From Escherichia phage EscoHU1: DNA of 64,000 nt. The notes under the pieces were generated by a model. That model saw only the letters and a program-made list of their open reading frames with translations. It was not told where the DNA came from and did no database searches. Positions 27,551 to 44,199 of this stretch are shown piece after piece. Position 1 is the first letter of the stretch, and each line of letters begins with the position of its first letter. The position numbers and the translations under genes were made by a program. Location of the stretch: the sequence record NC_133119.1; one strand, 5' to 3'.

Positions 27551-27922
27551 TAGATCTCCCTGATGTTAGAATTTGGCTCAGCTTTTTGTTAACCCAGAAG
27601 CAAGATAAAAACTGGAAGGCAGGCTTGCTTATTATCTAATCACTAGCTACTGTTGGGGTGCTAGCATTCCGGTGAGATTGATGGTCTCGATTAGATAAAT
27701 AAGCACTGGAACTTTGATTTTAACGTTGCGATCTTCCAGGTCTGTTGCAACTACGTGATTGCTCACGCTAAGACAATGGCTATCTAAAGCCCTAGCTTCT
27801 ACATTTATACTCCTGGATAGCATGGAGTTGCAGTCTACTTCCTGCTGTCACGCCCGGCCATTTATAGAATGTGGACTCTCTTCTCAGCAGGATCTGGTAC
27901 AATGACCTGATCCTCTGTTTAG

Positions 27923-27995
27923 TAGTTAGTAGTGGATTTGAACCACTGTAGTCACTCCGTATGAAGGAGGTGCATAACCACTCTGCCAACTAACT
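27923..27995 (-). tRNA. tRNA, anticodon CAU (Met or Ile2); CCA not encoded
   Basis: Manual fold: acceptor AGTTAGT/ACTAACT, T-loop TTCAAAT, loop TTCATAC. Confidence 0.65.
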
Positions 27996-29172: not shown

Positions 29173-29373
29173 TTATTCTACAGGAACCGTGGCAATTGGA
29201 TCTGGTTCTTCTAGACGTTTACCATTATGATCAACACGAATAATACCACAACCTTCACAGATTACAACAGCACCATAGCCTTCTTTAACTTCAGCTTCTG
29301 TAATCAGACCAGAAAGATCACCAGTATCTTTGCCCCACATATCGATAGAGCATTCTTTGCAGAAATCAGCCAT
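29173..29373 (-). CDS. small Cys-containing protein
   Basis: 66 aa ORF. Confidence 0.4.
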   Translation of the reverse strand: MADFCKECSIDMWGKDTGDLSGLITEAEVKEGYGAVVICEGCGIIRVDHNGKRLEEPDPIATVPVE

Positions 29374-29397
29374 ATTTTAGTTCCTATATAAGTTAAT

Positions 29398-29472
29398 TGG
29401 TGCATCCTCAGGGAATCGAACCCCGATCGTAAAGTTCGTAGCTTTACATTCTTTCCATTGAAATAAGGACGC
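29398..29472 (-). tRNA. tRNA-Arg (ACG)
   Basis: Anticodon stem TAAAG/CTTTA, loop CTACGAA. Confidence 0.75.
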
Positions 29473-29478
29473 AATATT

Positions 29479-29555
29479 TGGGGTGGCTAGTGGAATTCGA
29501 ATCCACATAGGCCTGATTCACAATCAGGATCATTAACCAATTATGATATAGCCAC
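29479..29555 (-). tRNA. tRNA-His (GUG)
   Basis: GTGGCTATA...TAGCCACCCCA closely matches E. coli tRNA-His ends; loop TTGTGAA. Confidence 0.85.
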
Positions 29556-29588
29556 AATTGAAAACTCGCAGGGTTAGCGAAACCATCC

Positions 29589-29768
29589 TCAAATAGCATT
29601 TTCTAGAATACTAATCAAGTTATCTTCTATTGCACGAAGCTCAAGACGAGTACGAATTTTCAATTGTGGCGGCTCTCCGAAACTCATCACACTAACAACT
29701 AGTTGATTACACCTGTATTCTCGCCCAGGAAATTCTCTAGAAAGGTGCACCGTTACTCTTTGAGCCAT
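29589..29768 (-). CDS. possible small protein (59 aa, below ORF-track cutoff)
   Basis: ATG..TGA frame found by hand; weak RBS. Confidence 0.25.
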   Translation of the reverse strand: MAQRVTVHLSREFPGREYRCNQLVVSVMSFGEPPQLKIRTRLELRAIEDNLISILENAI

Positions 29769-29774
29769 TGAATA

Positions 29775-29905
29775 TCAAGAAGCAGAAGGACTTGAACCTT
29801 CACGAGATAGACCATTTATCTCAGCCTCGTTTTCGGGTATCTTATGAGGAGTGGATGTTCCCCTTACGCCCTTTAGGAAGCCCCGTCTACCGATTCCGGC
29901 ATACT
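29775..29905 (-). other. tRNA-like element (class-II-type D-arm and T-arm but no closable acceptor stem); pseudogene or stable RNA
   Basis: GCCGGAATCGGTAGACGG and GAAGGTTCAAGTCCTTC arms about 85 nt apart. Confidence 0.3.
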
Positions 29906-29913
29906 TCAAGATT

Positions 29914-30003
29914 TGGCAGAAGATAATGGAGTCGAACCATCACCATATCACTACAGCGGGCCGGTTTTCAAGACCGGTTACGTACCACTACGTCCTATCT
30001 TCT
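29914..30003 (-). tRNA. tRNA-Ser (UGA)
   Basis: 90 nt with long variable arm; ACCGGTCTTGAAAACCGG as in E. coli tRNA-Ser; G73. Confidence 0.8.
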
Positions 30004-30358
30004 ATTGTTCGTATATTACAAAGTTTACAGATTCAGAGTAATAACCATTACTAGAACCATGCCATTTAACGGTTACACAGCCTTTAGCTGTGGCAAACTT
30101 ATACCATGTATGGGTTACTGAATCCCAATCTTCTGTAGCGTGTGTGATTACTTCCTCTGCTTCTATGATTGGATAACCTAAAAGGTCATGTAAATCACCA
30201 ATAATATCATCTATATGAACATCTTCACAGCAGTCCTGCTCATGATAAAACTTATAGTTCTTACCATCAGTACAAATGAAGATAAGAGTATCTTGGTCTT
30301 GGCATACACTAGTAAAAATTTTGCCAAGCATTTCATTATAGATTGTCACTTCTGACAT
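30002..30358 (-). CDS. hypothetical acidic protein
   Basis: 118 aa ORF. Confidence 0.45.
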   Translation of the reverse strand: MSEVTIYNEMLGKIFTSVCQDQDTLIFICTDGKNYKFYHEQDCCEDVHIDDIIGDLHDLLGYPIIEAEEVITHATEDWDSVTHTWYKFATAKGCVTVKWHGSSNGYYSESVNFVIYEQ

Positions 30359-30380
30359 ATTAGTTTCCTAGTAAGTTGTT

Positions 30381-30470
30381 TGGCGGAAGAAGAGAGATTC
30401 GAACTCTCAAGCCGTTTTACCAGTCAGCCACTTTCCAAGCGGTTTTCGTCACCTATCGATTTGCTCTTCC
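30381..30470 (-). tRNA. tRNA-Ser (GGA), tentative
   Basis: 90 nt, T-arm GAGAGTTCGAATCTCTC, G73, CCA; loop TTGGAAA; D-arm atypical. Confidence 0.55.
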
Positions 30471-30644
30471 GTAGATCTCAGGATTAAATCATAAACTTCA
30501 TTAGCGGATACTGGAAGTATGAGATTATACATCTTTTGGTCATACCTCTGACCATACTCTATAAACACATACTCTTTAGTTAATGTATTAACAGCTAACC
30601 AGATATCAGTTATAGGAGTTTTCATCATGAGTTAATCCAATGTT

Positions 30645-30725
30645 TGGTAGGGATGGAGGGACTCGAACCCACACCCGAAGACTAGAACCTAAATCTAGCG
30701 CGTCTGCCAATTTCGCCACATCCCC
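30645..30725 (-). tRNA. tRNA-Leu (UAG)
   Basis: Leu-type D-arm GCGAAATTGGCAGACGC; stem CTAGA/TCTAG, loop TTTAGGT. Confidence 0.7.
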
Positions 30726-30732
30726 ATTTTAT

Positions 30733-30951
30733 TTAGTTAGAAATAAATAGTAACCCTGCAACAATGGAACCTATGCCACTGAATACCATTATCAGCATAG
30801 CTTCTAAGCTGATAAAGCGGACGTTATATGGAGCGCCCCAAGAATAATCAGTAAAGAAAGTTTTCTTTTCTTTAGCTAAATCTTTAATAGTTCTAAAATA
30901 GATAGCTAGTGCTAAAGCTGCAAGAACTACAGAGGCTGCTAAGAATACCAT
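30733..30951 (-). CDS. small membrane protein
   Basis: 72 aa, two TM segments. Confidence 0.4.
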   Translation of the reverse strand: MVFLAASVVLAALALAIYFRTIKDLAKEKKTFFTDYSWGAPYNVRFISLEAMLIMVFSGIGSIVAGLLFISN

Positions 30952-30969
30952 ATTATTTCCTTAATTTGT

Positions 30970-31045
30970 TTGGTGGAGTCACTCAGAATTGAACTGAGTT
31001 CCACTGCTTGCAAGGCAGTAAGTTTAACCAAATAACCTATGACCC
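30970..31045 (-). tRNA. tRNA-Ala (UGC)
   Basis: G3:U70 pair, loop CTTGCAA, 3' end GACTCCACCA. Confidence 0.8.
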
Positions 31046-31050
31046 CGAAT

Positions 31051-31129
31051 TTGGTGGAGAATAAGAGATTCGAACTCTTCTGATATCCTCGGTGCAAGCG
31101 AGGTGTCCACTCCAAGCAGACCCATTCCC
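31051..31129 (-). tRNA. second tRNA with anticodon UGC (Ala-like, enlarged D-loop)
   Basis: 79 nt; G3:U70; loop CTTGCAC. Confidence 0.55.
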
Positions 31130-31392
31130 CAAAATCTTTAAGTTTACTAAGGCTATTAGCTCGGTGTGCGTATTACCCTCAGACATTAGCCAGTAGAGGA
31201 TAACCGCTCTTCACAAACCCGATACACTATTCAGTTGCCGCTGAATCTAGTGGACTAATCTAGAACTTATTGCAAAGTATCCCCCGCCATTAGGGGTCTA
31301 ATTGCAATTGTGCTTTTTGGCAGCCAGTCCTAGGTCGAGCTAATACCTTAGTGAACTTTGATGAGGATTTCTCCTCATCAATTTATATAAAT

Positions 31393-31421
31393 ATTATAAC
31401 AAGAAATTAAGCATCAAGCAA
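31393..31421 (-). promoter_or_regulatory. early sigma70 promoter (-35 TTGCTT, -10 TATAAT)
   Basis: 17-bp spacer. Confidence 0.7.
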
Positions 31422-31773
31422 GTACATTTTTAGCGATTTCTTGTAGTTCCTTAACGTCGCTAACGAAAAGGTAATCAGAGCTTCCAGAGTGCATACTCTG
31501 CATAACCACACCATCCTCTGGTGCATCTTCCTTCAAAGTAAGTCCTAACCAGAACTTGGCAAAACTAGGTGTTACCTCACCTTGACTTGCCTTGAACACA
31601 TCGCCTTCTGTGATCTCTTGACCAGTAGAGAGTCCCATGTACGGTACGTTCAGATCAATATCTTTGTAGAATTCAGCTAGATCTTGTTCGAAGTCCCAAC
31701 CTTTAGAGATAGCGAACTCCATTGTTACATGACCGAAATAGCCTTGAACCTTGCTTGATAATTGCATTTGCAA
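31414..31773 (-). CDS. hypothetical protein
   Basis: 119 aa ORF. Confidence 0.45.
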   Translation of the reverse strand: MQMQLSSKVQGYFGHVTMEFAISKGWDFEQDLAEFYKDIDLNVPYMGLSTGQEITEGDVFKASQGEVTPSFAKFWLGLTLKEDAPEDGVVMQSMHSGSSDYLFVSDVKELQEIAKNVLA

Positions 31774-31792
31774 TTCCTTATTTTGAGTTAAT

Positions 31793-31866
31793 TGGTACTC
31801 GGTGATAGAATCGAACTATCGCAACCGCCGTGTAAAGACGGGGTTCTCCCATTAAACTAACCGAGC
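31793..31866 (-). tRNA. tRNA-Val (UAC)
   Basis: Stem CCGTC/GGCGG, loop TTTACAC, CCA encoded. Confidence 0.7.
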
Positions 31867-31999
31867 AAAAGACGTCCTATAATATAGGCTTCAACTACAA
31901 ATTCACAGAAACCTGCTAAAAACATACCTATTGTAAAATCGGCAGAGAATACATAGGAATCTTTTATTTTCTGCTTCATTAAGTAAAACCAGATAGTCA

Positions 32000-32317
32000 T
32001 TAAAATCTCTCCATTCTAAAGCCAATGAAGTAAGGTGCATTACATGGAACATGCTTAAGATCTTTAAGAGTAATTTTACGTCCTAAGCGTCGTTCCATAC
32101 AAGTGAAACATAGAACAATATCTTTGGGCTGCTCTTTTCTTATCTGATCCCATACCCAATCTTCAACCATACACATTTCATGGTATTGTTCACAGTCTCG
32201 ACAATAATGACACTGATGTTCTGGTACTTTTTGATTTTTAATACACAGTTCAGTAAAGCGTTTTCCTGCTCTGCCAGACATTTCTGATATTGTTTCTAGA
32301 ACTTTGTTAATATTCAT
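32000..32317 (-). CDS. Cys-rich zinc-finger-like protein
   Basis: 105 aa; CHYCRDC and CFTC motifs. Confidence 0.45.
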   Translation of the reverse strand: MNINKVLETISEMSGRAGKRFTELCIKNQKVPEHQCHYCRDCEQYHEMCMVEDWVWDQIRKEQPKDIVLCFTCMERRLGRKITLKDLKHVPCNAPYFIGFRMERF

Positions 32318-32334
32318 AACAAATTCCTTTAAAT

Positions 32335-32412
32335 TGGTTGACCGTCTGGGATTCGAACCCAGAACCTACGAGGTAAAAGCTCGGTACTCTTATCCAGTTG
32401 AGTTAACGGTCA
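32335..32412 (-). tRNA. tRNA-Lys (UUU)
   Basis: Loop CTTTTAC; T-arm CTGGGTTCGAATCCCAG. Confidence 0.7.
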
Positions 32413-32600
32413 ATTTAATACATGTATACTTCTTTAATAGAGTAGACTTTCAAGTAAGGATGATTAATACCAAATTCCGCCATCACTTCGTTTTCATCTT
32501 TACCGTAGTGCGCTAGTGGATACTTCTTACGATCTTTGCTAGAACGTAAATCACTTACCTTTAAACGAAATAATTTCATTTCGAAATCCTTCTATTAAAT

Positions 32601-32678
32601 TGGAAGCGGGTGCAGGAATCGAACCTACCTCTTTCTAGCTTATGAGACTAGCGATCTCTACCAGAGATCTAACCCGCA
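32601..32678 (-). tRNA. tRNA, anticodon CAU (Met/fMet/Ile2), 1:72 mismatch
   Basis: Loop CTCATAA; acceptor position 1 unpaired. Confidence 0.6.
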
Positions 32679-32684
32679 ATTATT

Positions 32685-32761
32685 TGGTCTCCAATGAAGG
32701 ACTCGAACCTTCAACCCCACCGCCCCAAACGGTGTACTCTAGCCAATTGAGCTAATCGGAG
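32685..32761 (-). tRNA. tRNA-Pro (UGG)
   Basis: C1:G72, stem CACCG/CGGTG, loop TTTGGGG. Confidence 0.8.
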
Positions 32762-32793
32762 AATATTCTTTGTTAACTCACTTTATAAAATAT

Positions 32794-32822
32794 ATTATAC
32801 AGACATTTAAGTATAATAGCAA
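32794..32822 (-). promoter_or_regulatory. early sigma70 promoter (-35 TTGCTA, -10 TATAAT) preceding tRNA-Pro
   Basis: 17-bp spacer. Confidence 0.7.
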
Positions 32823-32978
32823 ATGAGTTTTTAATAAATTTACTTATTGCGTAGGCCACCTGGAGGGTTCAAGCCCCACGGCTGACAAAGAAGTTTGCGA
32901 GACTTCTCTTAAATGCCAGAATAGACCCGCCGATCTATCGGAACCTACTCGATAAGTAAACTTTCATTTACTTACTTA

Positions 32979-33365
32979 TTATGTGCTGTGTATTTCTCGA
33001 TGACAATTCGCACACACTAAAATACATTTCTGTAATTCTTCTCTCAGCTTATCCCTGGAAATACCAGAGGATCTGAATTGACTAATATTATAGTCTTTTG
33101 AGTTTTCATCAATATGATGAAAATCCAGAGCTTGTTTGCATTTATTATACCCACAAATAGAACATTCTAATATAGGGAAGTATTCTGCAATAATAGAATC
33201 AACAGTTTCACGTCTTTTTGCATTTTCGCTAATCTTACATGTTGGCTTCCACTTTTGTTTACCCGAGGGATATATTCCATTAGTATAGAAATATTCCTTG
33301 GTTAGTGGGTGTTCCACACCACAGTTTTTACAAAACTTGTATTCCATAGCTCCTCGAACAGTCAA
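32979..33365 (-). CDS. HNH homing endonuclease
   Basis: 128 aa; DFHHIDENSKDYN...CANCHREIH. Confidence 0.7.
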   Translation of the reverse strand: MTVRGAMEYKFCKNCGVEHPLTKEYFYTNGIYPSGKQKWKPTCKISENAKRRETVDSIIAEYFPILECSICGYNKCKQALDFHHIDENSKDYNISQFRSSGISRDKLREELQKCILVCANCHREIHST

Positions 33366-33483
33366 TCTAGGCAGGACTTGAACCTGCTATCACTTGTGCG
33401 GATTTACGAGAACCATTCTTTCACTCGAATCGAACGAGCTTCTACCCTCGGCAAGCTGGTGCCCCCTCTCCACCACGCTAGAA
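33366..33483 (-). other. tRNA-like element with two T-arm-like hairpins, no canonical cloverleaf
   Basis: GCAGGTTCAAGTCCTGC and GCTCGTTCGATTCGAGT on minus strand. Confidence 0.25.
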
Positions 33484-33491
33484 TGTTTATT

Positions 33492-33567
33492 TGGTACACC
33501 CACTAGGACTTGAACCTAGAACCCTCCGCTTAAGAGGCGGTAGCTCTAACCATTGAGCTATGGATGT
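33492..33567 (-). tRNA. tRNA-Lys (CUU), tentative
   Basis: D-stem GCTC/GAGC, loop CTCTTAA, A73. Confidence 0.55.
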
Positions 33568-33678
33568 ATATTAGTCCATTGTACATCTACAAAAGAAACC
33601 CCATTTACCGCAGTGTGGACACTGTCCTCCAGAGTTTCTAGCAAAGGATTTGAACTTCATTCAACACTCCTTTAAAGT

Positions 33679-33755
33679 TGGCGCGACCGATGGGATTCGA
33701 ACCCACATTCTCTCCCGTGACAGGGGAGTACCATTACCAAGCCAGCCCCGATCGC
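33679..33755 (-). tRNA. tRNA-Asp (GUC)
   Basis: Stem CTCCC/GGGAG, loop CTGTCAC, G73. Confidence 0.8.
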
Positions 33756-33764
33756 ATAATTTGT

Positions 33765-33950
33765 TTACTCAGCTTTGAGTTTTTCGATAGCTTCCTTAAC
33801 CTCTTTTAGAGCTTCACGACGTGCATTCTGTTGCTGCATATCTTGTATTAACGTCAGTTTTTGGTTTTCAATTTCTTGATCCCAGACCTTAATATTATTA
33901 ATTAGATTATCACGATCAGCTTCTAGTCGAGCAATTGCACGAGTTGTCAT
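33765..33950 (-). CDS. small coiled-coil protein
   Basis: 61 aa ORF. Confidence 0.4.
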   Translation of the reverse strand: MTTRAIARLEADRDNLINNIKVWDQEIENQKLTLIQDMQQQNARREALKEVKEAIEKLKAE

Positions 33951-33977
33951 ATCTATTTCCTCAGTTGTTAATGAAAT

Positions 33978-34060
33978 TGGCGGGCCGTGTAGGATTCGAA
34001 CCTACGTTGTCTTTCGACATGGATTAACAGTCCACCGCCAAACCGCTTGGCTAACGACCC
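33978..34060 (-). tRNA. tRNA-Asn (GUU) with 13-nt variable arm
   Basis: Anticodon arm TGGACTGTTAATCCA as E. coli tRNA-Asn; G73; 83 nt. Confidence 0.65.
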
Positions 34061-34067
34061 TAAAATT

Positions 34068-34143
34068 TGGACGACCGCATGAGATTCGAACTCACATAAG
34101 GAGGTTTTGCAGGCCTCCGCCTAAGCCATTCAGCCAACGGTCG
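34068..34143 (-). tRNA. tRNA-Cys (GCA)
   Basis: Loop CTGCAAA, U73, 3' end GTCGTCCA. Confidence 0.7.
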
Positions 34144-34321
34144 ATTTATCTTGTTTTTCGAGATCAACGAACTCTAAATCGTTGAAGTCTCCTAGAGTAC
34201 GGGAGTAATAACCGTCTCCAGCATCATAGCCTGATTTACCACACTTACACATCTTAAACTCACGTAGACGTGTAAAGATATGTTCAGAGCCACAACACTT
34301 AAATTTAACTAACTTTTTCAT
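34130..34321 (-). CDS. small zinc-ribbon-like protein
   Basis: 63 aa; CxGS...CKC; 3' end overlaps tRNA-Cys by about 14 nt. Confidence 0.35.
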   Translation of the reverse strand: MKKLVKFKCCGSEHIFTRLREFKMCKCGKSGYDAGDGYYSRTLGDFNDLEFVDLEKQDKSTVG

Positions 34322-34560
34322 CCAACACGCTCCGGTAAATCTTCGAGTTTATATTGAGTAGCCACATTAGCAGCATCTAGTAACAAACCCATATGTTTAA
34401 GAATTCTAGTGATAGCCTCGCCTTCTGCTTCTTCTACAAAGCAACGTAGTTGCATGAAGTCAATACCACCATCCATACCAGAGAAAATGTTAAGTAAGCG
34501 AAGCATTACCAGCTTACGTTCTTTTAATTCTTGTTCTGTCATGTTGCTTCTCCAGTTCAA
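34318..34560 (-). CDS. hypothetical protein
   Basis: 80 aa ORF. Confidence 0.4.
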   Translation of the reverse strand: MNWRSNMTEQELKERKLVMLRLLNIFSGMDGGIDFMQLRCFVEEAEGEAITRILKHMGLLLDAANVATQYKLEDLPERVG

Positions 34561-34571
34561 TTTATGTAATA

Positions 34572-34600
34572 ATTATACAGAACTTTAAGCGGTTAAGCAA
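34572..34600 (-). promoter_or_regulatory. early sigma70 promoter (-35 TTGCTT, -10 TATAAT)
   Basis: 17-bp spacer. Confidence 0.7.
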
Positions 34601-34880
34601 CTACATTTTTCAGAAATATGATGCCTTTCTTTTTCTTCTTATATTTCCATGTTAATGGATTCTGTCGATTATGAACGCTTGAGATCTTTGTCTCGTCAAA
34701 GTTCTTCAGTACCATGTAATCACAGGCCAACTGTTCCAGTGGGATGTGATCTCCGTCAAAAGCATAAACATAAGGCTGTTGACTGGCACGATAATGATAT
34801 ACTTTGTTAATTCTGCGTTTCAGTGACTTATCCGCACAGTAAATAAAGAAGTTTTCAGGATGCATCAGCATCTCCTTCAA
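34593..34880 (-). CDS. hypothetical protein
   Basis: 95 aa ORF. Confidence 0.4.
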   Translation of the reverse strand: MKEMLMHPENFFIYCADKSLKRRINKVYHYRASQQPYVYAFDGDHIPLEQLACDYMVLKNFDETKISSVHNRQNPLTWKYKKKKKGIIFLKNVVA

Positions 34881-34882
34881 AT

Positions 34883-34957
34883 TGGTGCACCCCGTTGGTA
34901 ACGATCCAACCTCTCAAGCTCTTCAGGCAAGCGCTAATCCATCTCAGCTAAAGGTGC
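34883..34957 (-). tRNA. tRNA-Phe-like (GAA), two U-U mismatches in anticodon stem, non-canonical T-loop
   Basis: Acceptor GCACCTT/GGGGTGC + ACCA; loop CTGAAGA; T-loop ATCGTTA. Confidence 0.5.
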
Positions 34958-34963
34958 AAATAT

Positions 34964-35043
34964 TGGCAAACCTACTAGGACTCGAACCTAGACCGTACGG
35001 TTTTGGAGACCGACATGCTGTCCAGTAACACTCTAGGGATGCA
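34964..35043 (-). tRNA. tRNA-Trp-like (CCA), 5' acceptor strand does not pair
   Basis: TCGGTCTCCAAAACCGT arm, T-arm, G73-CCA like E. coli tRNA-Trp; 5' half aberrant. Confidence 0.4.
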
Positions 35044-35048
35044 GAAAT

Positions 35049-35125
35049 TGGCGTCCTGTGCGGGGATCGAACCCGCAAATCCTACCTTGAAAGGGTAGTG
35101 ACTTTACCAGTTTGTCTAACAGGAC
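35049..35125 (-). tRNA. tRNA-Glu (UUC)
   Basis: GTCCTGT...ACAGGACGCCA ends, loop CTTTCAA. Confidence 0.8.
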
Positions 35126-35132
35126 TTAAATT

Positions 35133-35223
35133 TGGTGTTGGATGATGGAGTCGAACCACCCGAGACCCTTCCGAGTCGGCAGATTTACAGTCTGCTTCGC
35201 TACCTCTACGATACTAATCCAAC
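35133..35223 (-). tRNA. tRNA-Tyr (GUA)
   Basis: 91 nt; anticodon arm GCAGACTGTAAATCTGC identical to E. coli tRNA-Tyr. Confidence 0.85.
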
Positions 35224-35348
35224 ATATTTGAATGAAAAGTAAGTCGGTTAAACTCAAGGTGGAATATTTCAGGAAATCCTGACTTTACCCCTAAAAGCAA
35301 CTCGCTTAGTTACTTCTCATTCAGATATGTTTTCCAAATTAGATAACT

Positions 35349-35377
35349 ATTATACCAAGTTTTGAAGGACTGAGCAA
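35349..35377 (-). promoter_or_regulatory. early sigma70 promoter (-35 TTGCTC, -10 TATAAT) preceding tRNA-Tyr
   Basis: 17-bp spacer. Confidence 0.6.
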
Positions 35378-35413
35378 GTCAAATTTTAAAGAACTTGCTC
35401 AGTGCTATATCAG

Positions 35414-35689
35414 TTACTCGAAGCTAGGAGTGACACTCAGTTTGAATGGAAGCTCGAACACTTCTTCATAATCATCATTGAGCGTAATTACACGACCTTC
35501 TAGCTTAGTCATGGTGATTTCGATATCAGCCCTTGCATCAGGAGCCATACCAGCTTCCACACATTTAGCTTTGACTTCCGGCAGAAGTTCTACATCGTAG
35601 AAATAAAGCCATTCAATCTCACCCTCCCAGCCACCCCAGGATTTACAAACAGCACTTTCAACACCAGTTGCAGTAACACGTTTTGACAT
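35414..35689 (-). CDS. hypothetical acidic protein
   Basis: 91 aa ORF. Confidence 0.45.
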   Translation of the reverse strand: MSKRVTATGVESAVCKSWGGWEGEIEWLYFYDVELLPEVKAKCVEAGMAPDARADIEITMTKLEGRVITLNDDYEEVFELPFKLSVTPSFE

Positions 35690-35719
35690 TCGTTAACCCC
35701 TTCATCAATTTATATAACT

Positions 35720-35749
35720 ATTATATCAGAAATCTTAAGTAAAAAGCAA
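35720..35749 (-). promoter_or_regulatory. early sigma70 promoter (-35 TTGCTT, 18 bp, -10 TATAAT)
   Basis: Hexamers read on minus strand. Confidence 0.65.
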
Positions 35750-35779
35750 GTACATTTTTAAAATTTCTGCTTGGAGGAG

Positions 35780-36052
35780 TTAAACTCCTGATTCTTCAGC
35801 CAGATCAAGCCCAACCAACGTGATTGCCATAATAGCTGCGCCATGTTCTTTCTCTCCTAGCTCTTTGGCTTGAGTGAGAATATTGAGGAATTGCTTTTGA
35901 AAATCTGCAACTTCTTCTGTCATGCCTGCTTCAGCAATAATTCCTTTCAGCATAAAGCGTTGTGCTGTAATTTCAGGATTAGCCATTTGTTTTCTCCAGT
36001 TATTTAGAATGTAAGCCAAACTTAGGATCATAGCGATCGTAAGTCGTACCAT
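35780..36052 (-). CDS. hypothetical protein
   Basis: 90 aa ORF. Confidence 0.45.
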   Translation of the reverse strand: MVRLTIAMILSLAYILNNWRKQMANPEITAQRFMLKGIIAEAGMTEEVADFQKQFLNILTQAKELGEKEHGAAIMAITLVGLDLAEESGV

Positions 36053-36137
36053 TAGTTGAAGCCTTGATGCTATGAAAACGACAGTACATAAATTTACGTA
36101 GTGCTTTCTTAATAGCTTTCATTTTATTTCCTTAATT

Positions 36138-36214
36138 TGGTAGGGGTGGTGGGATTCGAACCCACAAAACCCGAATTTTAAGTCCGGTACCTATGCCAAT
36201 TCGATTACACCCCC
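36138..36214 (-). tRNA. tRNA with anticodon UAA (Leu by anticodon) in class-I frame
   Basis: 77 nt; stem CCGGA/TTCGG, loop CTTAAAA, 5-nt variable loop. Confidence 0.6.
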
Positions 36215-36223
36215 ATGTAATCT

Positions 36224-36571
36224 TTAGAGTTCGTAACCCTGAATATATCGAGCAAAACCAGTAATCTCGAACTGAATTGCCCATGCTACTTCCATATGCT
36301 CAATCTTACTAAAATGAGCGTCAGACTGTTCTAGGAAATAACGAGAGATTATAGGGAACTCAATGTCAAAATCTTCCTTATCCATACCATAGAAGAAGTT
36401 TCCAGAAATATTACGAACTTCACGAAAGAAATCCTCAATCTGAAAATCCATCAGAGGATAAGTATATTCCTCTTTGCTATCATCCGTTTGGAAGAAGCGG
36501 AAATGCACAAGGCAAGAGCCAATCAGATTTACTGCTGGAGTAGTGTAAATATCCATGTTAACCTCGATCAA
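36224..36571 (-). CDS. hypothetical acidic protein
   Basis: 115 aa ORF. Confidence 0.45.
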   Translation of the reverse strand: MIEVNMDIYTTPAVNLIGSCLVHFRFFQTDDSKEEYTYPLMDFQIEDFFREVRNISGNFFYGMDKEDFDIEFPIISRYFLEQSDAHFSKIEHMEVAWAIQFEITGFARYIQGYEL

Positions 36572-36743
36572 TATCTAGAGAAATTCCAAATTCTGGATTA
36601 ATACCAGAACCATTACATGCTGCACATTCCCACTCTTCAAAACGCATATCGCCAGGTTCAGCATCATTAATAGTACCTGTTCCATGGCAGTGAGCACACA
36701 TGCACTCTTCTAGTTCTTGTTTAAGCTCTTGAAACTTAGACAT
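36558..36743 (-). CDS. small Cys-rich protein
   Basis: 61 aa; CAHCHGTG...CAACNGSG. Confidence 0.4.
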   Translation of the reverse strand: MSKFQELKQELEECMCAHCHGTGTINDAEPGDMRFEEWECAACNGSGINPEFGISLDIDRG

Positions 36744-36760
36744 ATAGTCTCCTAGTTAAT

Positions 36761-36838
36761 TGGTGGCTCCCGGAGGATTCGAACCTACCTACCTTTCGCT
36801 TATGAGGCGACGGCTCATACCAAATGAGCTTGAGAACC
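36761..36838 (-). tRNA. tRNA, anticodon CAU (third CAU species)
   Basis: Acceptor GGTTCTC/GGGAGCC, loop CTCATAA, CCA encoded. Confidence 0.65.
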
Positions 36839-36843
36839 AAATT

Positions 36844-36915
36844 TGGAGGAAGATGCCAGACTCGAACTGGCACACCGTGTCTCCACAGCTACTGGCTGTT
36901 TAGCAAACAGCTCCC
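36844..36915 (-). other. tRNA-like element (T-arm, acceptor, CCA) with truncated anticodon region
   Basis: GCCAGTTCGAGTCTGGC + ATCTTCC-T-CCA; only about 16 nt between D-arm and T-arm. Confidence 0.3.
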
Positions 36916-36951
36916 TTACCTTTAGGGTTAATCTTCCAAATTTATGAATAT

Positions 36952-36980
36952 ATTATATTAGAAATTTAGCTTCATGGCAA
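36952..36980 (-). promoter_or_regulatory. early sigma70 promoter (-35 TTGCCA, -10 TATAAT)
   Basis: 17-bp spacer; overlaps stop of upstream gene. Confidence 0.6.
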
Positions 36981-37431
36981 GAAAATTTTTCAAGTTTTCT
37001 GTATTCATTTCATCTAAATCCATGAGGGAAGTAAACCCATTTAGTTTTTTAGCAAACTTCTCACCAGCAGAATCATTATCGCCTACGGCTACTACTTTAA
37101 AAGGTTGTAATTTTAGCTGCTTTAGCAATGCTTTGCTAGGGGAAGATCCTAGCATTGCTAGTGCGGGATATCCCGCGTTGTGTAGTGCCACAGCTTTAAA
37201 TACAGATTCTGCAACTAATACTAGGTCTTCATTACCTGTAAGAGTTTCTAAACCCCATAGACATTGAGTAGAAGAATGCGTAAAATATTTAGCTTCAGAA
37301 GGACATTTTCCATGACCTTTAGCTGCACTAGGGTTATATGTTTGATATCCACGTAACATGCCAGAGAAATCATACAGTGGAACTGTTAACCATCCATGTG
37401 GAGAGCCAACAGTGATACTTACCACTATCAA
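36958..37431 (-). CDS. hypothetical protein (possible Toprim-like fold)
   Basis: 157 aa; LVLVAESV...VVAVGDNDSAGEKF. Confidence 0.4.
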   Translation of the reverse strand: MIVVSITVGSPHGWLTVPLYDFSGMLRGYQTYNPSAAKGHGKCPSEAKYFTHSSTQCLWGLETLTGNEDLVLVAESVFKAVALHNAGYPALAMLGSSPSKALLKQLKLQPFKVVAVGDNDSAGEKFAKKLNGFTSLMDLDEMNTENLKNFLAMKLNF

Positions 37432-37505
37432 AGCCCCTAGATAAAAGATGTTGTTTTAACTCGTCAACAGTCATATATGACTCCTATCTATAATTTATAG
37501 AATAT

Positions 37506-37534
37506 ATTATATAGAAAATTTCGGCATTAAGCAA
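37506..37534 (-). promoter_or_regulatory. early sigma70 promoter (-35 TTGCTT, -10 TATAAT)
   Basis: 17-bp spacer. Confidence 0.7.
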
Positions 37535-37542
37535 GTGAAATT

Positions 37543-37839
37543 TTACTGAACACTGCACTGATACACTTGTTTGATACGTGTCACTGACTTCTTAGTTGGA
37601 TTGATAGAAGAACCTTGCCACCAACGTGATTCTGAGCTGAGAACAGCACCAGGAACAGCTTGTTCTTTTGGCAGAACAATATCAAAACATTGCTCACCCA
37701 TATTATCTTTAATGTGTGACCAAATATCCAAAGTAAATCGTTCTAACTTATTACAAACCTGAACTTGACAAAGTTCCTGTTGCGGAGCAGCAAATACAGA
37801 AGTAGATACTAGAGTCAATGCAAGTACAATGCGTTTCAT
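37543..37839 (-). CDS. secreted protein (signal peptide)
   Basis: 98 aa; MKRIVLALTLVSTSVFAAP. Confidence 0.45.
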   Translation of the reverse strand: MKRIVLALTLVSTSVFAAPQQELCQVQVCNKLERFTLDIWSHIKDNMGEQCFDIVLPKEQAVPGAVLSSESRWWQGSSINPTKKSVTRIKQVYQCSVQ

Positions 37840-37869
37840 GTTTGATTCCTCTCTCGAATTTATAAATAT

Positions 37870-37898
37870 ATTATACAGAAATTTTCTATATTAAGCAA
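37870..37898 (-). promoter_or_regulatory. early sigma70 promoter (-35 TTGCTT, -10 TATAAT)
   Basis: 17-bp spacer. Confidence 0.7.
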
Positions 37899-37916
37899 GT
37901 GAAAATTTCTGTATAA

Positions 37917-37937
37917 TAGCCCTCGCTTAGAGGGCTA
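37917..37937 (-). terminator. hairpin terminator (TAGCCCTC-GCTTA-GAGGGCTA)
   Basis: Directly after PnuC-like stop. Confidence 0.45.
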
Positions 37938-37945
37938 TAACTACT

Positions 37946-38638
37946 TTATTTGTTAACGCGTACAAAGTATCCTTTATAGGCTCCAAGAATGGAGTTACCT
38001 AAGAATACTAGCCACATTGCTAGGATTGCATAAGATGCACCTGTAGATTGAGCAGTTACAAGCCAAATGTATACAGTACCAATGTTAATAGCAATCCAGA
38101 TCAGCCATTGTTCAGCATATTGCTTGACCATAAGCCACATAGCAATCACACTACCAACCGCAGTAAATGCATCGAGCATCGGGAATGGATCAGCTGTAGT
38201 AGCAAGGAAGCTACCGTAACCTAAAGTAGCTACTGCTAGAACCCCTAGAGTCAGCAAAGCTTGGGCTTTAGTCAGAATCTTAGTTGGAACATCTGGCAGA
38301 TTACTTGGCTTATTTTTATGCCATAAGTACATTCCGTAGAACTGCATAGGAACGTAGTACAATAGGTTTAATGCTGCGTTACCATAAAGATCTGCATTTA
38401 AAGCTGTAATACCATAGGTAAGAACACCAACTAAGCCCCAAATATAGTTGGAAACGCGTCCTTTTGCAACCAAAATAACACAAACTACGTTGGTTATCGC
38501 AGTAGCCCAATCTAGAGGTGTACCATTATAGTTAGCTAAACTAATGAAGGCAACCGCTATGAACAGCCACAGATATTCCAGAGGTTTCCAGTTTTTAAAG
38601 TCATTTACGAGATAGTTAGTCATATTAAAACTCTCCAA
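37946..38638 (-). CDS. pnuC: nicotinamide riboside/NMN transporter PnuC-like
   Basis: 230 aa multi-TM; family resemblance (WLFIAVAFISL...YGMYLW). Confidence 0.65.
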   Translation of the reverse strand: MESFNMTNYLVNDFKNWKPLEYLWLFIAVAFISLANYNGTPLDWATAITNVVCVILVAKGRVSNYIWGLVGVLTYGITALNADLYGNAALNLLYYVPMQFYGMYLWHKNKPSNLPDVPTKILTKAQALLTLGVLAVATLGYGSFLATTADPFPMLDAFTAVGSVIAMWLMVKQYAEQWLIWIAINIGTVYIWLVTAQSTGASYAILAMWLVFLGNSILGAYKGYFVRVNK

Positions 38639-43340: not shown

Positions 43341-44199
43341 TTTAGGTATTTTTAAGAACTCTCGTAAAAGTCCATAAAAATACCCGACGGTAGGTAGGGT
43401 CAGCCCCCTCAGATTAAGCTCTGCAGCCCTTCCGTCAGACAATATCTTCCAGTTTAAGTCAGGGTGACTTTGTGGTTATGTTCTCCGTATGTGAAGAACT
43501 CGGTTAGGCTTAGGTCATGACTCCCAGCCTGCTGCTGCCGCTCAACAGGAATTATCGCGAATTACCTGTACTATTGGGCACCATTAGTGACATCTCTCAT
43601 GTCAGCATTTCCCACTCTCATATTCACGCGGTCTGTTAGAATCGCACCTCCGATTTTCGATGCGAAGCTGGATGCCTAGTCTCTAGGTTAAACGGGGCAC
43701 ACACTAGGCAGTGATCCCGAGTTCCGAGTTTGGTTGAGGCCGTCAGGTTTCCTCGTGGTTTAGCTGTTTCGATTCTAACCTAATACTGATCAGGCGGTGT
43801 ACCTCCTGAACCGTCATAGTATGTACTACAGCAGCGAATGCTTATCCGGTATAAGCCCGAGTTATCTGATTCTTTCCGACCGCAGGATTCGAACCTGCAT
43901 CTTCCACCAGTTACGGTTTGATATTACCGTTTATACTAGGACGGCAGTGTTATCACATAAGTCAGTTCGACACCCCACTAACATAAACTAGAGAAGAGTT
44001 TACGAGATTTCGGGACAGCTCCCGAGTTTTCCGCAGATTTTCAGTTCCCTATCAATAGCAATAAGCGTTAGCTCGTAGCCTCTCTCAGAGTACTTACTAG
44101 TCTCCAACTCACCGACTCTATTCAGTGGAATAGCTATCCTAGTAGGAATCACTAAACTCACTCAGCGTAATCGGCTCGCTGTTCTCTAATTTATGAATC
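43341..44199 (-). ncRNA. candidate structured non-coding RNA / long leader (GC-richer ORF-free island)
   Basis: About 860 nt with no ORF of 60 aa or more on the transcribed strand; immediately downstream of promoter 44200-44228; T-arm-like hairpin at about 43875-43895. Confidence 0.35.

What the first reader, a model, noticed from the sequence alone, without database searches (positions are those of the whole stretch)
29775..29905. Defective tRNA-like elements interspersed in the tRNA cluster
At least four loci (29775-29905, 33366-33483, 34964-35043, 36844-36915) have good T-arms and often an acceptor 3' strand with CCA, but lack a pairable 5' acceptor strand or a proper anticodon arm. They sit in tRNA-sized slots between bona fide tRNAs. 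They could be pseudogenes, processing punctuation for the polycistronic transcript, or small stable RNAs.
Basis: seen in the sequence. Interest (0 to 1): 0.5.

Follow-up and report, generated by a model that had tools for sequence, protein, structure and literature searches.

The report
Known T5 tRNA-like stable RNAs
Two of the four flagged loci are ordinary tRNA genes, and the other two are this phage's copies of phage T5's already annotated RNA1 and RNA2: conserved small RNAs built on a tRNA frame, with a structured insert in place of the anticodon loop and no known function.

Summary
The window is a T5-like phage, 100% identical to Salmonella phage Sepoy at the first locus. All the tRNA genes lie on the minus strand.

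- **Two loci are real tRNAs.** 34964-35043 is tRNA-Trp(cca). 36844-36915 is the 3' three-quarters of tRNA-Ser(gct), 36844-36937. ARAGORN and Rfam both call them.
- **Two loci are not tRNAs.** 29775-29905 and 33366-33483 are missed by ARAGORN and fall below the Rfam threshold. They are orthologues of T5 rna1 and rna2, annotated in NC_005859 as "tRNA-like stable RNA with unknown functions".
- **Both have a pairable 5' acceptor strand.**
- **Structure.** Covariation across T5-like phages supports a full tRNA frame: acceptor, D arm, "anticodon" stem and T arm, plus a long variable arm in RNA1. The anticodon loop is replaced by a structured insert of 48 nt (RNA1) or 55 nt (RNA2) with invariant loops. 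Neither RNA encodes CCA, whereas 27 of 28 true tRNAs do.
- **Not pseudogenes.** They are structured RNAs under selection, non-decoding and dispensable in the laboratory.

Function remains unknown. The elements are already known, so interest is modest.

The parts
29774..29912 (-). RNA1, the orthologue of T5 rna1. The tRNA-shaped body is 29777-29908, and a 3-bp helix extension pairs 29910-29912 with 29774-29776.
   Evidence: 81.4% identical to T5 rna1 over 145 nt. The covariance model built from 26 homologues scores it 166 bits. The proposed structure is 97.4% paired, with 16 of 38 pairs showing changes on both sides.
29902..29908 (-). RNA1 acceptor 5' strand (UGAAGUA). Position 29908 forms U.U with 29778.
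   Evidence: Alignment columns 6-12 pair with 130-136. Five of the six inner pairs show changes on both sides across phages.
29883..29899 (-). RNA1 D arm, of tRNA-Leu type (CCG GAAUCGGUAGA CGG).
   Evidence: Nearly invariant in 26 sequences. It aligns to the D arm of the Rfam tRNA model. The best non-self hits of the RNA1 model are tRNA-Leu genes at 30-35 bits.
29829..29876 (-). RNA1 48-nt insert in place of the anticodon loop: an A-rich internal loop, a 3-bp helix, a second internal loop, and a 5-6-bp helix capped by the invariant 8-nt loop ACAUCCAC (29851-29858). It is closed by the 'anticodon' stem 29877-29881 / 29824-29828.
   Evidence: Helices 3, 4 and 5 are 95-100% paired, with 3, 2 and 3 pairs changed on both sides. 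The loop columns are invariant or nearly so.
29803..29823 (-). RNA1 long variable arm: a 7-bp stem with the loop AAUGGUC.
   Evidence: 99.5% paired, with 2 pairs changed on both sides. It carries the motif AATGGT-N0-5-TCTCGT, which RNA2 also has.
29785..29801 (-). RNA1 T arm (GAAGG UUCAAGU CCUUC).
29778..29784 (-). RNA1 acceptor 3' strand (UGCUUCU). It is followed by UGAUAUUC, not CCA.
33363..33485 (-). RNA2, the orthologue of T5 rna2.
   Evidence: 88.8% identical to T5 rna2 over 125 nt. Model R1 scores it 151 bits. The structure is 96.9% paired, with 15 of 36 pairs changed on both sides.
33478..33485 (-). RNA2 acceptor 5' strand. It pairs with 33363-33370, giving 8 bp with one U.U in this phage.
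   Evidence: Seven of 8 pairs are changed on both sides between the E. coli/Salmonella phages and the Klebsiella phages.
33457..33475 (-). RNA2 D arm: a 5-bp stem with a G-rich loop.
   Evidence: Four of 5 pairs are changed on both sides.
33397..33451 (-). RNA2 55-nt insert in place of the anticodon loop, closed by the stem 33452-33456 / 33392-33396. It holds a second, internal T-arm-like hairpin (33423-33439, GCUCG UUCGAUU CGAGU) and the motif AAUGGUUCUCGU (33406-33417).
   Evidence: Anchored on its loop, the internal hairpin is 5/5 paired in all 18 sequences (GCUCG/CGAGU against UACGG/CCGUA). The flanking helix is 4/4 paired (AGAA/UUCU against GAGA/UCUC).
33371..33387 (-). RNA2 T arm (GCAGG UUCAAGU CCUGC).
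34964..35040 (-). Genuine tRNA-Trp(cca), not a defective element.
   Evidence: ARAGORN. Rfam 35.2 bits, with two non-standard acceptor pairs. It encodes CCA.
36844..36937 (-). Genuine tRNA-Ser(gct).
   Evidence: ARAGORN. Rfam 47.1 bits. It encodes CCA.

Best explanation
The two real elements are the orthologues of T5 RNA1 (about 29774-29912) and RNA2 (33363-33485). They are structured, non-decoding small RNAs built on a tRNA frame.

Shown here:
- Each keeps an acceptor stem, a D arm, a 5-bp 'anticodon' stem and a canonical T arm. RNA1 also keeps a long variable arm and a tRNA-Leu-type D arm.
- The 7-nt anticodon loop is replaced by a structured insert of 48 nt (RNA1) or 55 nt (RNA2). Its stems covary and its loops are invariant.
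- Neither RNA encodes CCA.

Inferred:
- They are transcribed with the neighbouring tRNAs, on the same strand. RNA1 begins a few nucleotides after the CCA of tRNA-Ser(tga), and RNA2 a few nucleotides after the CCA of tRNA-Lys(ctt). No good promoter lies in between.
- They are cut out by the host tRNA-processing enzymes: RNase P or RNase E at the 5' side, and exonuclease trimming at the 3' side.
- The L-shaped tRNA core makes them stable.
- The inserted arm is the working part, probably a binding surface for a protein or RNA partner. It also keeps them out of decoding.

The partner and the biological role are unknown. The RNAs are dispensable for growth on laboratory E. coli, which suggests an accessory role such as host range or counter-defence.
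For: **Identity.** The window is 100% identical to Salmonella phage Sepoy. It aligns to T5 rna1 at 81% and rna2 at 89%. The order RNA1, RNAI, RNAIII, tRNA-His is the same as in T5.

**RNA1 structure.** On 26 sequences the structure is 97.4% paired, and 16 of 38 pairs have changes on both sides. None of 500 shuffles reached the observed value. Slid controls gave 38-51% paired (the 18-sequence version is). RNAalifold recovers the same helices on its own, except for an alternative D hairpin built from invariant columns.

**RNA2 structure.** The structure is 96.9% paired, and 15 of 36 pairs have changes on both sides, with 0 of 500 shuffles reaching this. The inner hairpin and its flanking helix also covary.

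**tRNA frame.** The Rfam tRNA model aligns the acceptor, D and T arms of RNA1 at 22.6 bits, with the anticodon arm looped out. The RNA1 model's best other hits are tRNA-Leu genes at 30-35 bits. The RNA2 model hits ordinary tRNAs at 12-36 bits with the insert deleted.

**Not decoding.** The residues at the would-be anticodon differ among close relatives: CUAAAG, CUAAAA, CGAAUA, CUAAUA, CUAACG. CCA is not encoded, whereas 27 of 28 tRNAs here encode it.

**Not coding.** No reading frame is open in all homologues. The best is 10 of 26 for RNA1 and 14 of 18 for RNA2.

**Breadth.** RNA1 is found in 491 phage records, including Klebsiella Sugarlandvirus and Pectobacterium phage DU_PP_V of the Mccorquodalevirinae. 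RNA2 is found in about 400.

**Dispensability.** The viable T5 deletion mutants T5-123 (deletion 29191-32442) and T5Mos (deletion 30661-38625) remove rna1 and rna2 respectively (PMC11464382; coordinates).

**Shared module.** AATGGT-N0-5-TCTCGT occurs exactly twice in the 64 kb, once in each RNA, against 0.05 expected.
Against: There are no expression or end-mapping data for this phage. The 'stable RNA' label comes from the T5 record, and I could not read the primary papers.

Folding energies of the single sequences are unremarkable (z = -1.15 and +0.59).

In RNA1 the acceptor helix continues for 3 more covarying pairs beyond a U.U/U.U loop. RNA2 has an extra pair at -1:73. T5 annotates ends that lie outside the canonical +1 and 73 positions. 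The mature ends may therefore not be the ones tRNA processing would give.

Most of the covariation rests on a few lineage contrasts: two or three Tequintavirus/Epseptimavirus types, Klebsiella phages, and DU_PP_V. The number of independent events is small.

Nothing tested points to a partner. Sequences complementary to the invariant loops are not enriched in the window.
Confidence: 0.78

Rival explanations
1. They are decaying tRNA pseudogenes: tRNA-Leu-like and other tRNA copies disrupted by insertions and no longer under selection.
For: ARAGORN does not call them and Rfam scores them below threshold. The RNA1 frame resembles tRNA-Leu, so an origin from a tRNA gene is likely. They are dispensable in T5 deletion mutants.
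Against: Compensatory substitutions keep every helix, including those inside the inserts. Insert loops and the nucleotides that form tRNA tertiary contacts are invariant over 26 sequences. The elements are retained in about 490 genomes across subfamilies. T5 annotates them as stable RNAs.
Confidence: 0.03
2. They are intron-containing tRNA genes, and splicing yields a functional decoding tRNA. tRNAscan's call of the RNA1 locus as 'tRNA-Phe(aaa)', 135 nt, in phage JLBYU43 implies this.
For: The insert sits exactly in the anticodon loop, flanked by a 5-bp stem. One public record annotates RNA1 as tRNA-Phe(aaa).
Against: The inserts are 48 and 55 nt, far shorter than the group I introns that interrupt bacterial and phage tRNA genes (established knowledge). 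No Rfam intron family matches. The would-be anticodon varies among near-identical relatives (AAA, AAU, AAC), which would switch amino-acid identity. Position 1:72 is U.U, the residue after the RNA1 acceptor strand is U where this phage's own tRNA-Leu genes have A, and no CCA is encoded. The insert itself is under structural selection.
Confidence: 0.03
3. They are pure processing punctuation: tRNA-like minihelices whose only job is to recruit RNase P and so cut the polycistronic tRNA/mRNA transcripts. The excised RNA would be a by-product, as with plant mitochondrial t-elements.
For: They sit in tRNA-sized slots directly after tRNAs and before other small RNAs or ORFs. An intact acceptor stem plus T arm is the minimal RNase P substrate (established knowledge). 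They are dispensable.
Against: Punctuation needs only the acceptor/T minihelix. Here the D arm, the variable arm and above all the 48-55-nt inserts are conserved, with covariation and invariant loops. The two RNAs share a sequence module.
Confidence: 0.1
4. The loci encode small proteins. Several GenBank records place 'hypothetical protein' CDSs over them.
For: ORFs of 44-52 aa overlap RNA1 and ORFs of 31-65 aa overlap RNA2. CDS annotations lie over the match in several phages.
Against: No frame is open in all homologues: at most 10 of 26 for RNA1 and 14 of 18 for RNA2. The substitution pattern is paired-site compensation, not third-codon-position variation.
Confidence: 0.02

Closest known systems
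Phage T5 RNA1 and RNA2 (misc_RNA rna1 at 30501-30644 and rna2 at 32959-33083 in NC_005859 / AY543070, 'tRNA-like stable RNA with unknown functions')
   Same: These are direct orthologues, at 81% and 89% identity. They lie on the same strand in the tRNA cluster. RNA1 has the same downstream neighbours: RNAI, RNAIII and tRNA-His.
   Different: In this phage an HNH endonuclease ORF (32979-33365) separates RNA2 from the RNAIV homologue. The RNA2 D loop differs (GGAGAGGGGGCA against UGAUGGGGAAA). T5 rna3 has no counterpart here.
Phage T4 species 1 RNA (annotated rnaC in NC_000866), a small stable RNA at the end of the T4 tRNA cluster
   Same: The design is the same. It is about 140 nt, co-located with tRNA genes, with an acceptor-like terminal stem, a canonical T arm (CCGGG UUCGAAU CCCGG), a long variable-arm-like hairpin and a long arm where the anticodon arm would be. 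By my recollection its function is still unknown and it is non-essential.
   Different: No sequence or covariance-model similarity was found. Neither the RNA1 nor the RNA2 model hits the T4 locus. The T4 RNA shows no recognisable D arm in the predicted fold. Homology is therefore not shown, and this may be convergence or very old divergence.
tRNA-like domain of tmRNA
   Same: A tRNA acceptor and T-arm frame with a large insertion in place of the anticodon arm, processed by the tRNA enzymes.
   Different: There is no tag reading frame and there are no pseudoknots. A full D arm and an 'anticodon' stem are kept, and no CCA is encoded. ARAGORN reports no tmRNA and Rfam reports no tmRNA match.
Engineered 'tRNA scaffold' for expressing recombinant RNA in E. 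coli (Ponchon and Dardel; from my own knowledge)
   Same: It uses the same trick: the anticodon stem-loop of a tRNA is replaced by a cargo RNA. The chimera is processed like a tRNA and protected from nucleases by the tRNA fold.
   Different: It is a laboratory construct. Here the arrangement is natural and conserved, and the cargo's function is unknown.
Plant mitochondrial t-elements, tRNA-like processing signals
   Same: tRNA-like structures placed among genes that recruit tRNA-processing enzymes to define transcript ends.
   Different: t-elements need no conserved cargo. RNA1 and RNA2 carry conserved, covarying inserts, and T5 reports them as stable RNAs.

Membership tests
Canonical tRNA (Rfam RF00005 / ARAGORN) | Acceptor stem, D arm and T arm with the conserved tertiary-contact nucleotides (U8, A14, G18G19, T-loop UUCRANY) | tested here: met
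   RNA1 has all of them and they are invariant. RNA2 has the acceptor, D and T arms, but C rather than U at the position corresponding to U8 (sequence).
Canonical tRNA (Rfam RF00005 / ARAGORN) | Anticodon arm with a 7-nt loop and a conserved anticodon | tested here: not met
   The loop is replaced by 48 nt (RNA1) or 55 nt (RNA2). The would-be anticodon varies among close relatives.
Canonical tRNA (Rfam RF00005 / ARAGORN) | Detected by tRNA finders or reaching the Rfam gathering score of 29 bits | tested here: not met
   ARAGORN finds nothing at either locus. Rfam gives 22.6 bits for RNA1 and 12.5 bits for RNA2. By contrast, loci 34964-35040 (35.2 bits) and 36844-36937 (47.1 bits) pass and are tRNAs.
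Canonical tRNA (Rfam RF00005 / ARAGORN) | 3' CCA end, encoded in this phage's tRNA genes, and aminoacylation | tested here: not met
   27 of 28 tRNAs encode CCA, and RNA1 and RNA2 do not. Post-transcriptional CCA addition and charging cannot be tested with these tools.
T5 RNA1 / RNA2 tRNA-like stable RNAs | Sequence orthology to T5 rna1 and rna2 | tested here: met
   81.4% over 145 nt and 88.8% over 125 nt. The covariance models score window and T5 copies alike.
T5 RNA1 / RNA2 tRNA-like stable RNAs | Position within the tRNA cluster, on the same strand, with the same neighbours | tested here: met
   The order RNA1, RNAI, RNAIII, tRNA-His is conserved. RNA2 is in the same cluster but is separated from RNAIV by an inserted HNH ORF.
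T5 RNA1 / RNA2 tRNA-like stable RNAs | Accumulation as a discrete stable RNA in infected cells | not testable with these tools
   Only the T5 record's annotation is available. No RNA data exist for this phage.
tmRNA | tRNA-Ala-like acceptor, tag-peptide reading frame and pseudoknots | tested here: not met
   ARAGORN, which also searches for tmRNA, finds none. No Rfam tmRNA match appears at E<=10.
tRNA gene interrupted by a group I intron | Intron of a few hundred nt with the conserved group I core, in the anticodon loop | tested here: not met
   The inserts are 48 and 55 nt, and no Rfam intron family matches.
T4 species 1 RNA (rnaC) | Sequence or structure homology to the T4 RNA | tested here: not met
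   The RNA1 and RNA2 covariance models do not hit the T4 rnaC/rnaD locus. Only the overall design is alike.

The most novel reading that the evidence does not exclude
RNA1 and RNA2 are natural 'tRNA-scaffolded' effector RNAs. The tRNA frame gets them processed, stabilised and admitted to tRNA-binding machinery. The conserved inserts then bind a common host or phage factor. These inserts include the shared AAUGG...UCUCGU module, and in RNA2 a second T-loop 'elbow'. One possible role is as decoys or inhibitors of host tRNA-targeting immunity or of a translation factor. This would give the T5 (and perhaps T4) stable RNAs, unexplained for decades, a counter-defence or host-takeover role.
Probability: 0.15. 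Interest if true: 0.7.

Novelty: already known. Interest (0 to 1): 0.3.

Why it matters
The finding is half a misfold and half a rediscovery. Two loci are normal tRNAs. Two are the T5 RNA1 and RNA2 genes, which the T5 reference annotation has long carried but which most annotations of T5-like genomes omit or mislabel as 'hypothetical protein' or 'tRNA-Phe(aaa)'.

What this analysis adds is a secondary-structure model backed by covariation. It shows that both RNAs are complete tRNA frames whose anticodon loop is replaced by a conserved structured domain, that RNA1 derives from a tRNA-Leu-type gene, and that the two share a sequence module. So they are functional RNAs rather than junk.

Phage tRNAs are now known to counter host nucleases that cut tRNAs. 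That gives a concrete and testable lead on RNAs whose function has never been found.

Tried and rejected
- **Wider homologue searches.** I scanned viral contigs and metagenome contigs (9 loci) for motifs of the two RNAs. Only T5-like phages came back, with little new diversity.
- **Bacterial genomes.** A scan of one genome per bacterial species for the RNA2 motif gave 0 hits. A search of E. coli genomes with RNA1 gave no match. There are no host or prophage copies.
- **RNA2 in Pectobacterium phage DU_PP_V.** The RNA2 model found only tRNAs in the 14 kb around its RNA1. RNA2 is absent there or too diverged.
- **Antisense targets.** Sequences complementary to the invariant RNA1 loops are not enriched in the window: 7 against 4.3 expected and 4 against 6.2 expected, each count including the locus itself.
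- **RNA1-RNA2 loop pairing.** I looked by eye for complementarity between the RNA1 loop CAUCCAC and the RNA2 D loop. It does not covary, because the window's RNA2 D loop differs while the RNA1 loop is unchanged. I dropped it.
- **An alternative RNA2 helix.** CGAG/CUCG is broken by G-to-U changes in several phages with no compensation. I rejected it.
- **Other Rfam families.** Nothing other than a weak tRNA match came up.
- **Literature.** Six full-text searches found no paper in the held library that discusses the T5 stable RNAs. The 2018 deletion-mutant paper (PubMed 29512629) is not held.
- **Terminator reading.** The RNA1 T arm followed by a U-rich strand scores as a weak terminator-like site. 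It is the conserved T arm of a covarying tRNA frame, so I did not pursue this.

Full report
**Source and context**

The window comes from a T5-like phage. The stretch 29556-29913 is 100% identical to Salmonella phage Sepoy, and about 490 phage records carry close relatives. ARAGORN finds 28 tRNA genes, all on the minus strand. Twenty-seven lie between 27.9 and 36.9 kb and one at 43.3 kb. Rfam confirms most of them and adds two matches that ARAGORN missed.

**The four loci in the finding**

Two of them are ordinary tRNA genes.
- 34964-35040 is tRNA-Trp(cca) (ARAGORN; Rfam 35.2 bits against a threshold of 29). The Rfam alignment shows a normal cloverleaf with two non-standard pairs in the acceptor stem. 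This probably explains why hand folding failed.
- 36844-36915 is the 3' three-quarters of tRNA-Ser(gct), 36844-36937 (ARAGORN; Rfam 47.1 bits).
- Both genes encode CCA.

The other two loci are genuinely not tRNAs by software.
- ARAGORN is silent.
- A permissive Rfam scan of the whole cluster (E<=10) reports nothing there.
- In a scan of the element alone, 29777-29908 reaches 22.6 bits on the tRNA model. Acceptor, D arm and T arm align, and the anticodon arm is replaced by a 62-nt unaligned stretch.
- The second element reaches only 12.5 bits.

**What these two loci are**

The T5 reference genome (NC_005859) annotates eight misc_RNA genes in and next to its tRNA cluster. Among them are rna1 (30501-30644) and rna2 (32959-33083), both noted as "tRNA-like stable RNA with unknown functions".

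The window aligns to them directly.
- rna1 maps to 29767-29910 at 81% identity, and rna2 to 33361-33485 at 89%.
- The neighbourhood of RNA1 matches as well. It is followed by the homologues of RNAI and RNAIII (29557-29662 at 96%) and then by tRNA-His.
- The RNAIV homologue is at 32848-32948. It is separated from RNA2 by a 128-aa HNH endonuclease ORF that T5 lacks.

So the finding rediscovers two annotated T5 genes.

**Structure of RNA1**

I collected homologues from Tequintavirus/Epseptimavirus phages, from Klebsiella Sugarlandvirus phages and from Pectobacterium phage DU_PP_V of the subfamily Mccorquodalevirinae. I aligned 26 distinct sequences.

A structure I derived by eye, and that RNAalifold largely recovers on its own, has these parts:
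- A 6-bp acceptor stem, plus a U.U at 1:72.
- An extension of 3 further pairs beyond a U.U/U.U internal loop.
- A D arm of tRNA-Leu type (CCG GAAUYGGUAGA CGG).
- A 5-bp "anticodon" stem.
- A 7-bp variable arm.
- A canonical T arm.
- A 48-nt insert where the anticodon loop should be. It holds a 3-bp helix and a 5-6-bp helix capped by the invariant loop ACAUCCAC.

The support is strong. 97.4% of cells are paired, and 16 of 38 pairs show changes on both sides. None of 500 column shuffles reaches the observed values, and sliding the partners by 1-3 columns drops pairing to 38-51% (the 18-sequence version is). The D-arm pairs never vary, so covariation cannot choose between the tRNA-type D arm and the alternative hairpin that RNAalifold draws. 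I chose the tRNA type because it fits the Rfam tRNA model.

A covariance model of RNA1 finds tRNA-Leu genes as its best other hits, at 35.1, 34.3, 31.7 and 30.1 bits. The frame therefore most likely descends from a tRNA-Leu-type gene.

**Structure of RNA2**

The same approach on 17-18 sequences gives:
- An 8-bp acceptor stem, with 7 of 8 pairs changed on both sides between the E. coli/Salmonella phages and the Klebsiella phages.
- A 5-bp D stem, with 4 of 5 pairs changed on both sides.
- A 5-bp "anticodon" stem.
- A 4-nt variable region.
- A T arm.

Overall 96.9% of cells are paired and 15 of 36 pairs are changed on both sides. None of 500 shuffles reaches this, and slid controls give 28-43%.

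The 55-nt insert contains a second hairpin that matches the T-arm consensus (G-UUCGAUU-C). MAFFT and the model misaligned the Klebsiella copies of this hairpin by one base. When the sequences are anchored on the loop, the hairpin is 5/5 paired in all 18 (GCUCG/CGAGU against UACGG/CCGUA). A 4-bp helix flanking it is 4/4 paired (AGAA/UUCU against GAGA/UCUC). This part rests on a single lineage contrast.

The RNA2 model also hits ordinary tRNAs at 12-36 bits with the insert deleted, which confirms the tRNA frame.

**Properties that bear on function**

- *No CCA.* 27 of 28 true tRNA genes encode CCA followed by AAU or AUU. RNA1 and RNA2 do not.
- *No stable anticodon.* The residues where an anticodon would sit differ among near-identical relatives.
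- *No conserved ORF.* No reading frame is open in all homologues, even though several public records place CDSs there, and one calls RNA1 "tRNA-Phe(aaa)".
- *Shared motif.* AATGGT-N0-5-TCTCGT occurs exactly twice in the 64 kb, once in the RNA1 variable arm and once in the RNA2 insert, against 0.05 expected. I defined this pattern after seeing the sequences.
- *Co-transcription.* No good promoter lies between either RNA and the tRNA just upstream. This fits co-transcription.
- *Dispensable.* The viable T5 deletion mutants described in PMC11464382 remove rna1 (T5-123, deletion 29191-32442) or rna2 (T5Mos, deletion 30661-38625). Both RNAs are therefore dispensable on laboratory E. coli.
- *Confined to T5-like phages.* Scans of metagenomes, bacterial genomes and E. 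coli genomes found copies only in T5-like phages.

**Interpretation**

What is shown:
- The two elements are orthologues of T5 RNA1 and RNA2.
- They are structured RNAs under purifying selection.
- They have a tRNA frame with the anticodon loop replaced.
- They are not canonical tRNAs, not pseudogenes and not protein-coding.

What is inferred:
- They are released from the tRNA transcripts by the tRNA-processing enzymes.
- The tRNA fold gives them stability.
- The conserved insert is the functional surface.

The covarying extension of the RNA1 acceptor helix, and the ends annotated in T5, warn that the mature termini may not be the canonical tRNA ones. The role is unknown. An accessory or counter-defence role is plausible but untested. 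I found no antisense targets in the window.

**Comparison with known systems**

The closest known relatives are T5 RNA1 and RNA2 themselves.

Phage T4 species 1 RNA has the same overall design: a terminal stem, a long arm, a long hairpin and a T arm. Neither covariance model detects it, so homology is not shown.

tmRNA and intron-containing tRNAs were considered and fail their defining features. The arrangement works like the engineered "tRNA scaffold" used to express foreign RNAs in E. coli (my own knowledge).

**Verdict**

The elements are already known, though their function is not, so interest is modest.

Noticed in passing
window 43874-43945 (-), inside the RNAX homologue 43341-44000: A third orphan tRNA-like element lies outside the main cluster, upstream of tRNA-Arg(tct). 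Rfam scores it 29.3 bits on the tRNA model, just over the threshold of 29. Its D and T arms are good, its acceptor stem has two mismatches, and its anticodon arm cannot be aligned. ARAGORN does not call it. T5 annotates the whole 719-nt region as stable RNA 'RNAX'.
   Followed up: partly
window 34886-34957 (-): A tRNA-Phe(gaa) that Rfam finds at 33.4 bits and ARAGORN misses. It has an unusual T loop (AUCGUUA) and two mismatches in the anticodon stem. It corresponds in position to T5 tRNA-Phe.
   Followed up: partly
window 29557-29768 (-): The homologues of the T5 stable RNAs RNAIII (29557-29662, 96% identical) and RNAI (about 29663-29766) are overlapped by a 59-aa ORF (29589-29768), which other T5-like genomes annotate as a CDS. 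In T5 the same frame appears to stop early within the RNAI part. RNAI has a closing stem GGCUC/GAGCC followed by G-CCA, like a tRNA acceptor end. Whether this region acts as RNA, protein or both is open.
   Followed up: partly
window 32979-33365 (-): A 128-aa HNH endonuclease ORF starts right at the 3' end of RNA2 and separates it from the RNAIV homologue (32848-32948). T5 has no gene at this position. This looks like a homing-endonuclease insertion within the tRNA cluster.
   Followed up: no
window 27922-27995 (-): tRNA-Met(cat) is the only one of the 28 ARAGORN tRNAs with no encoded 3' CCA. All the others end in CCA followed by AAU or AUU.
   Followed up: no
window 29802-29816 and 33406-33417 (-): RNA1 and RNA2 share the motif AAUGGU(N0-5)UCUCGU, which occurs nowhere else in the 64 kb (0.05 expected). 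In both RNAs it runs from a loop into the 3' strand of a GAGA/UCUC-type helix. This suggests a common module or a common origin.
   Followed up: partly
L052 (Pectobacterium phage DU_PP_V) 7001-7143; L023 (Klebsiella phage GZ8) 8989-9132 and 13095-13233: RNA1 is conserved in a second Demerecviridae subfamily and in Sugarlandvirus, at different positions relative to particular tRNAs. In most of these records it is unannotated or annotated as a hypothetical protein. RNA2 was found in the Klebsiella phages but not in the DU_PP_V region searched.
   Followed up: partly
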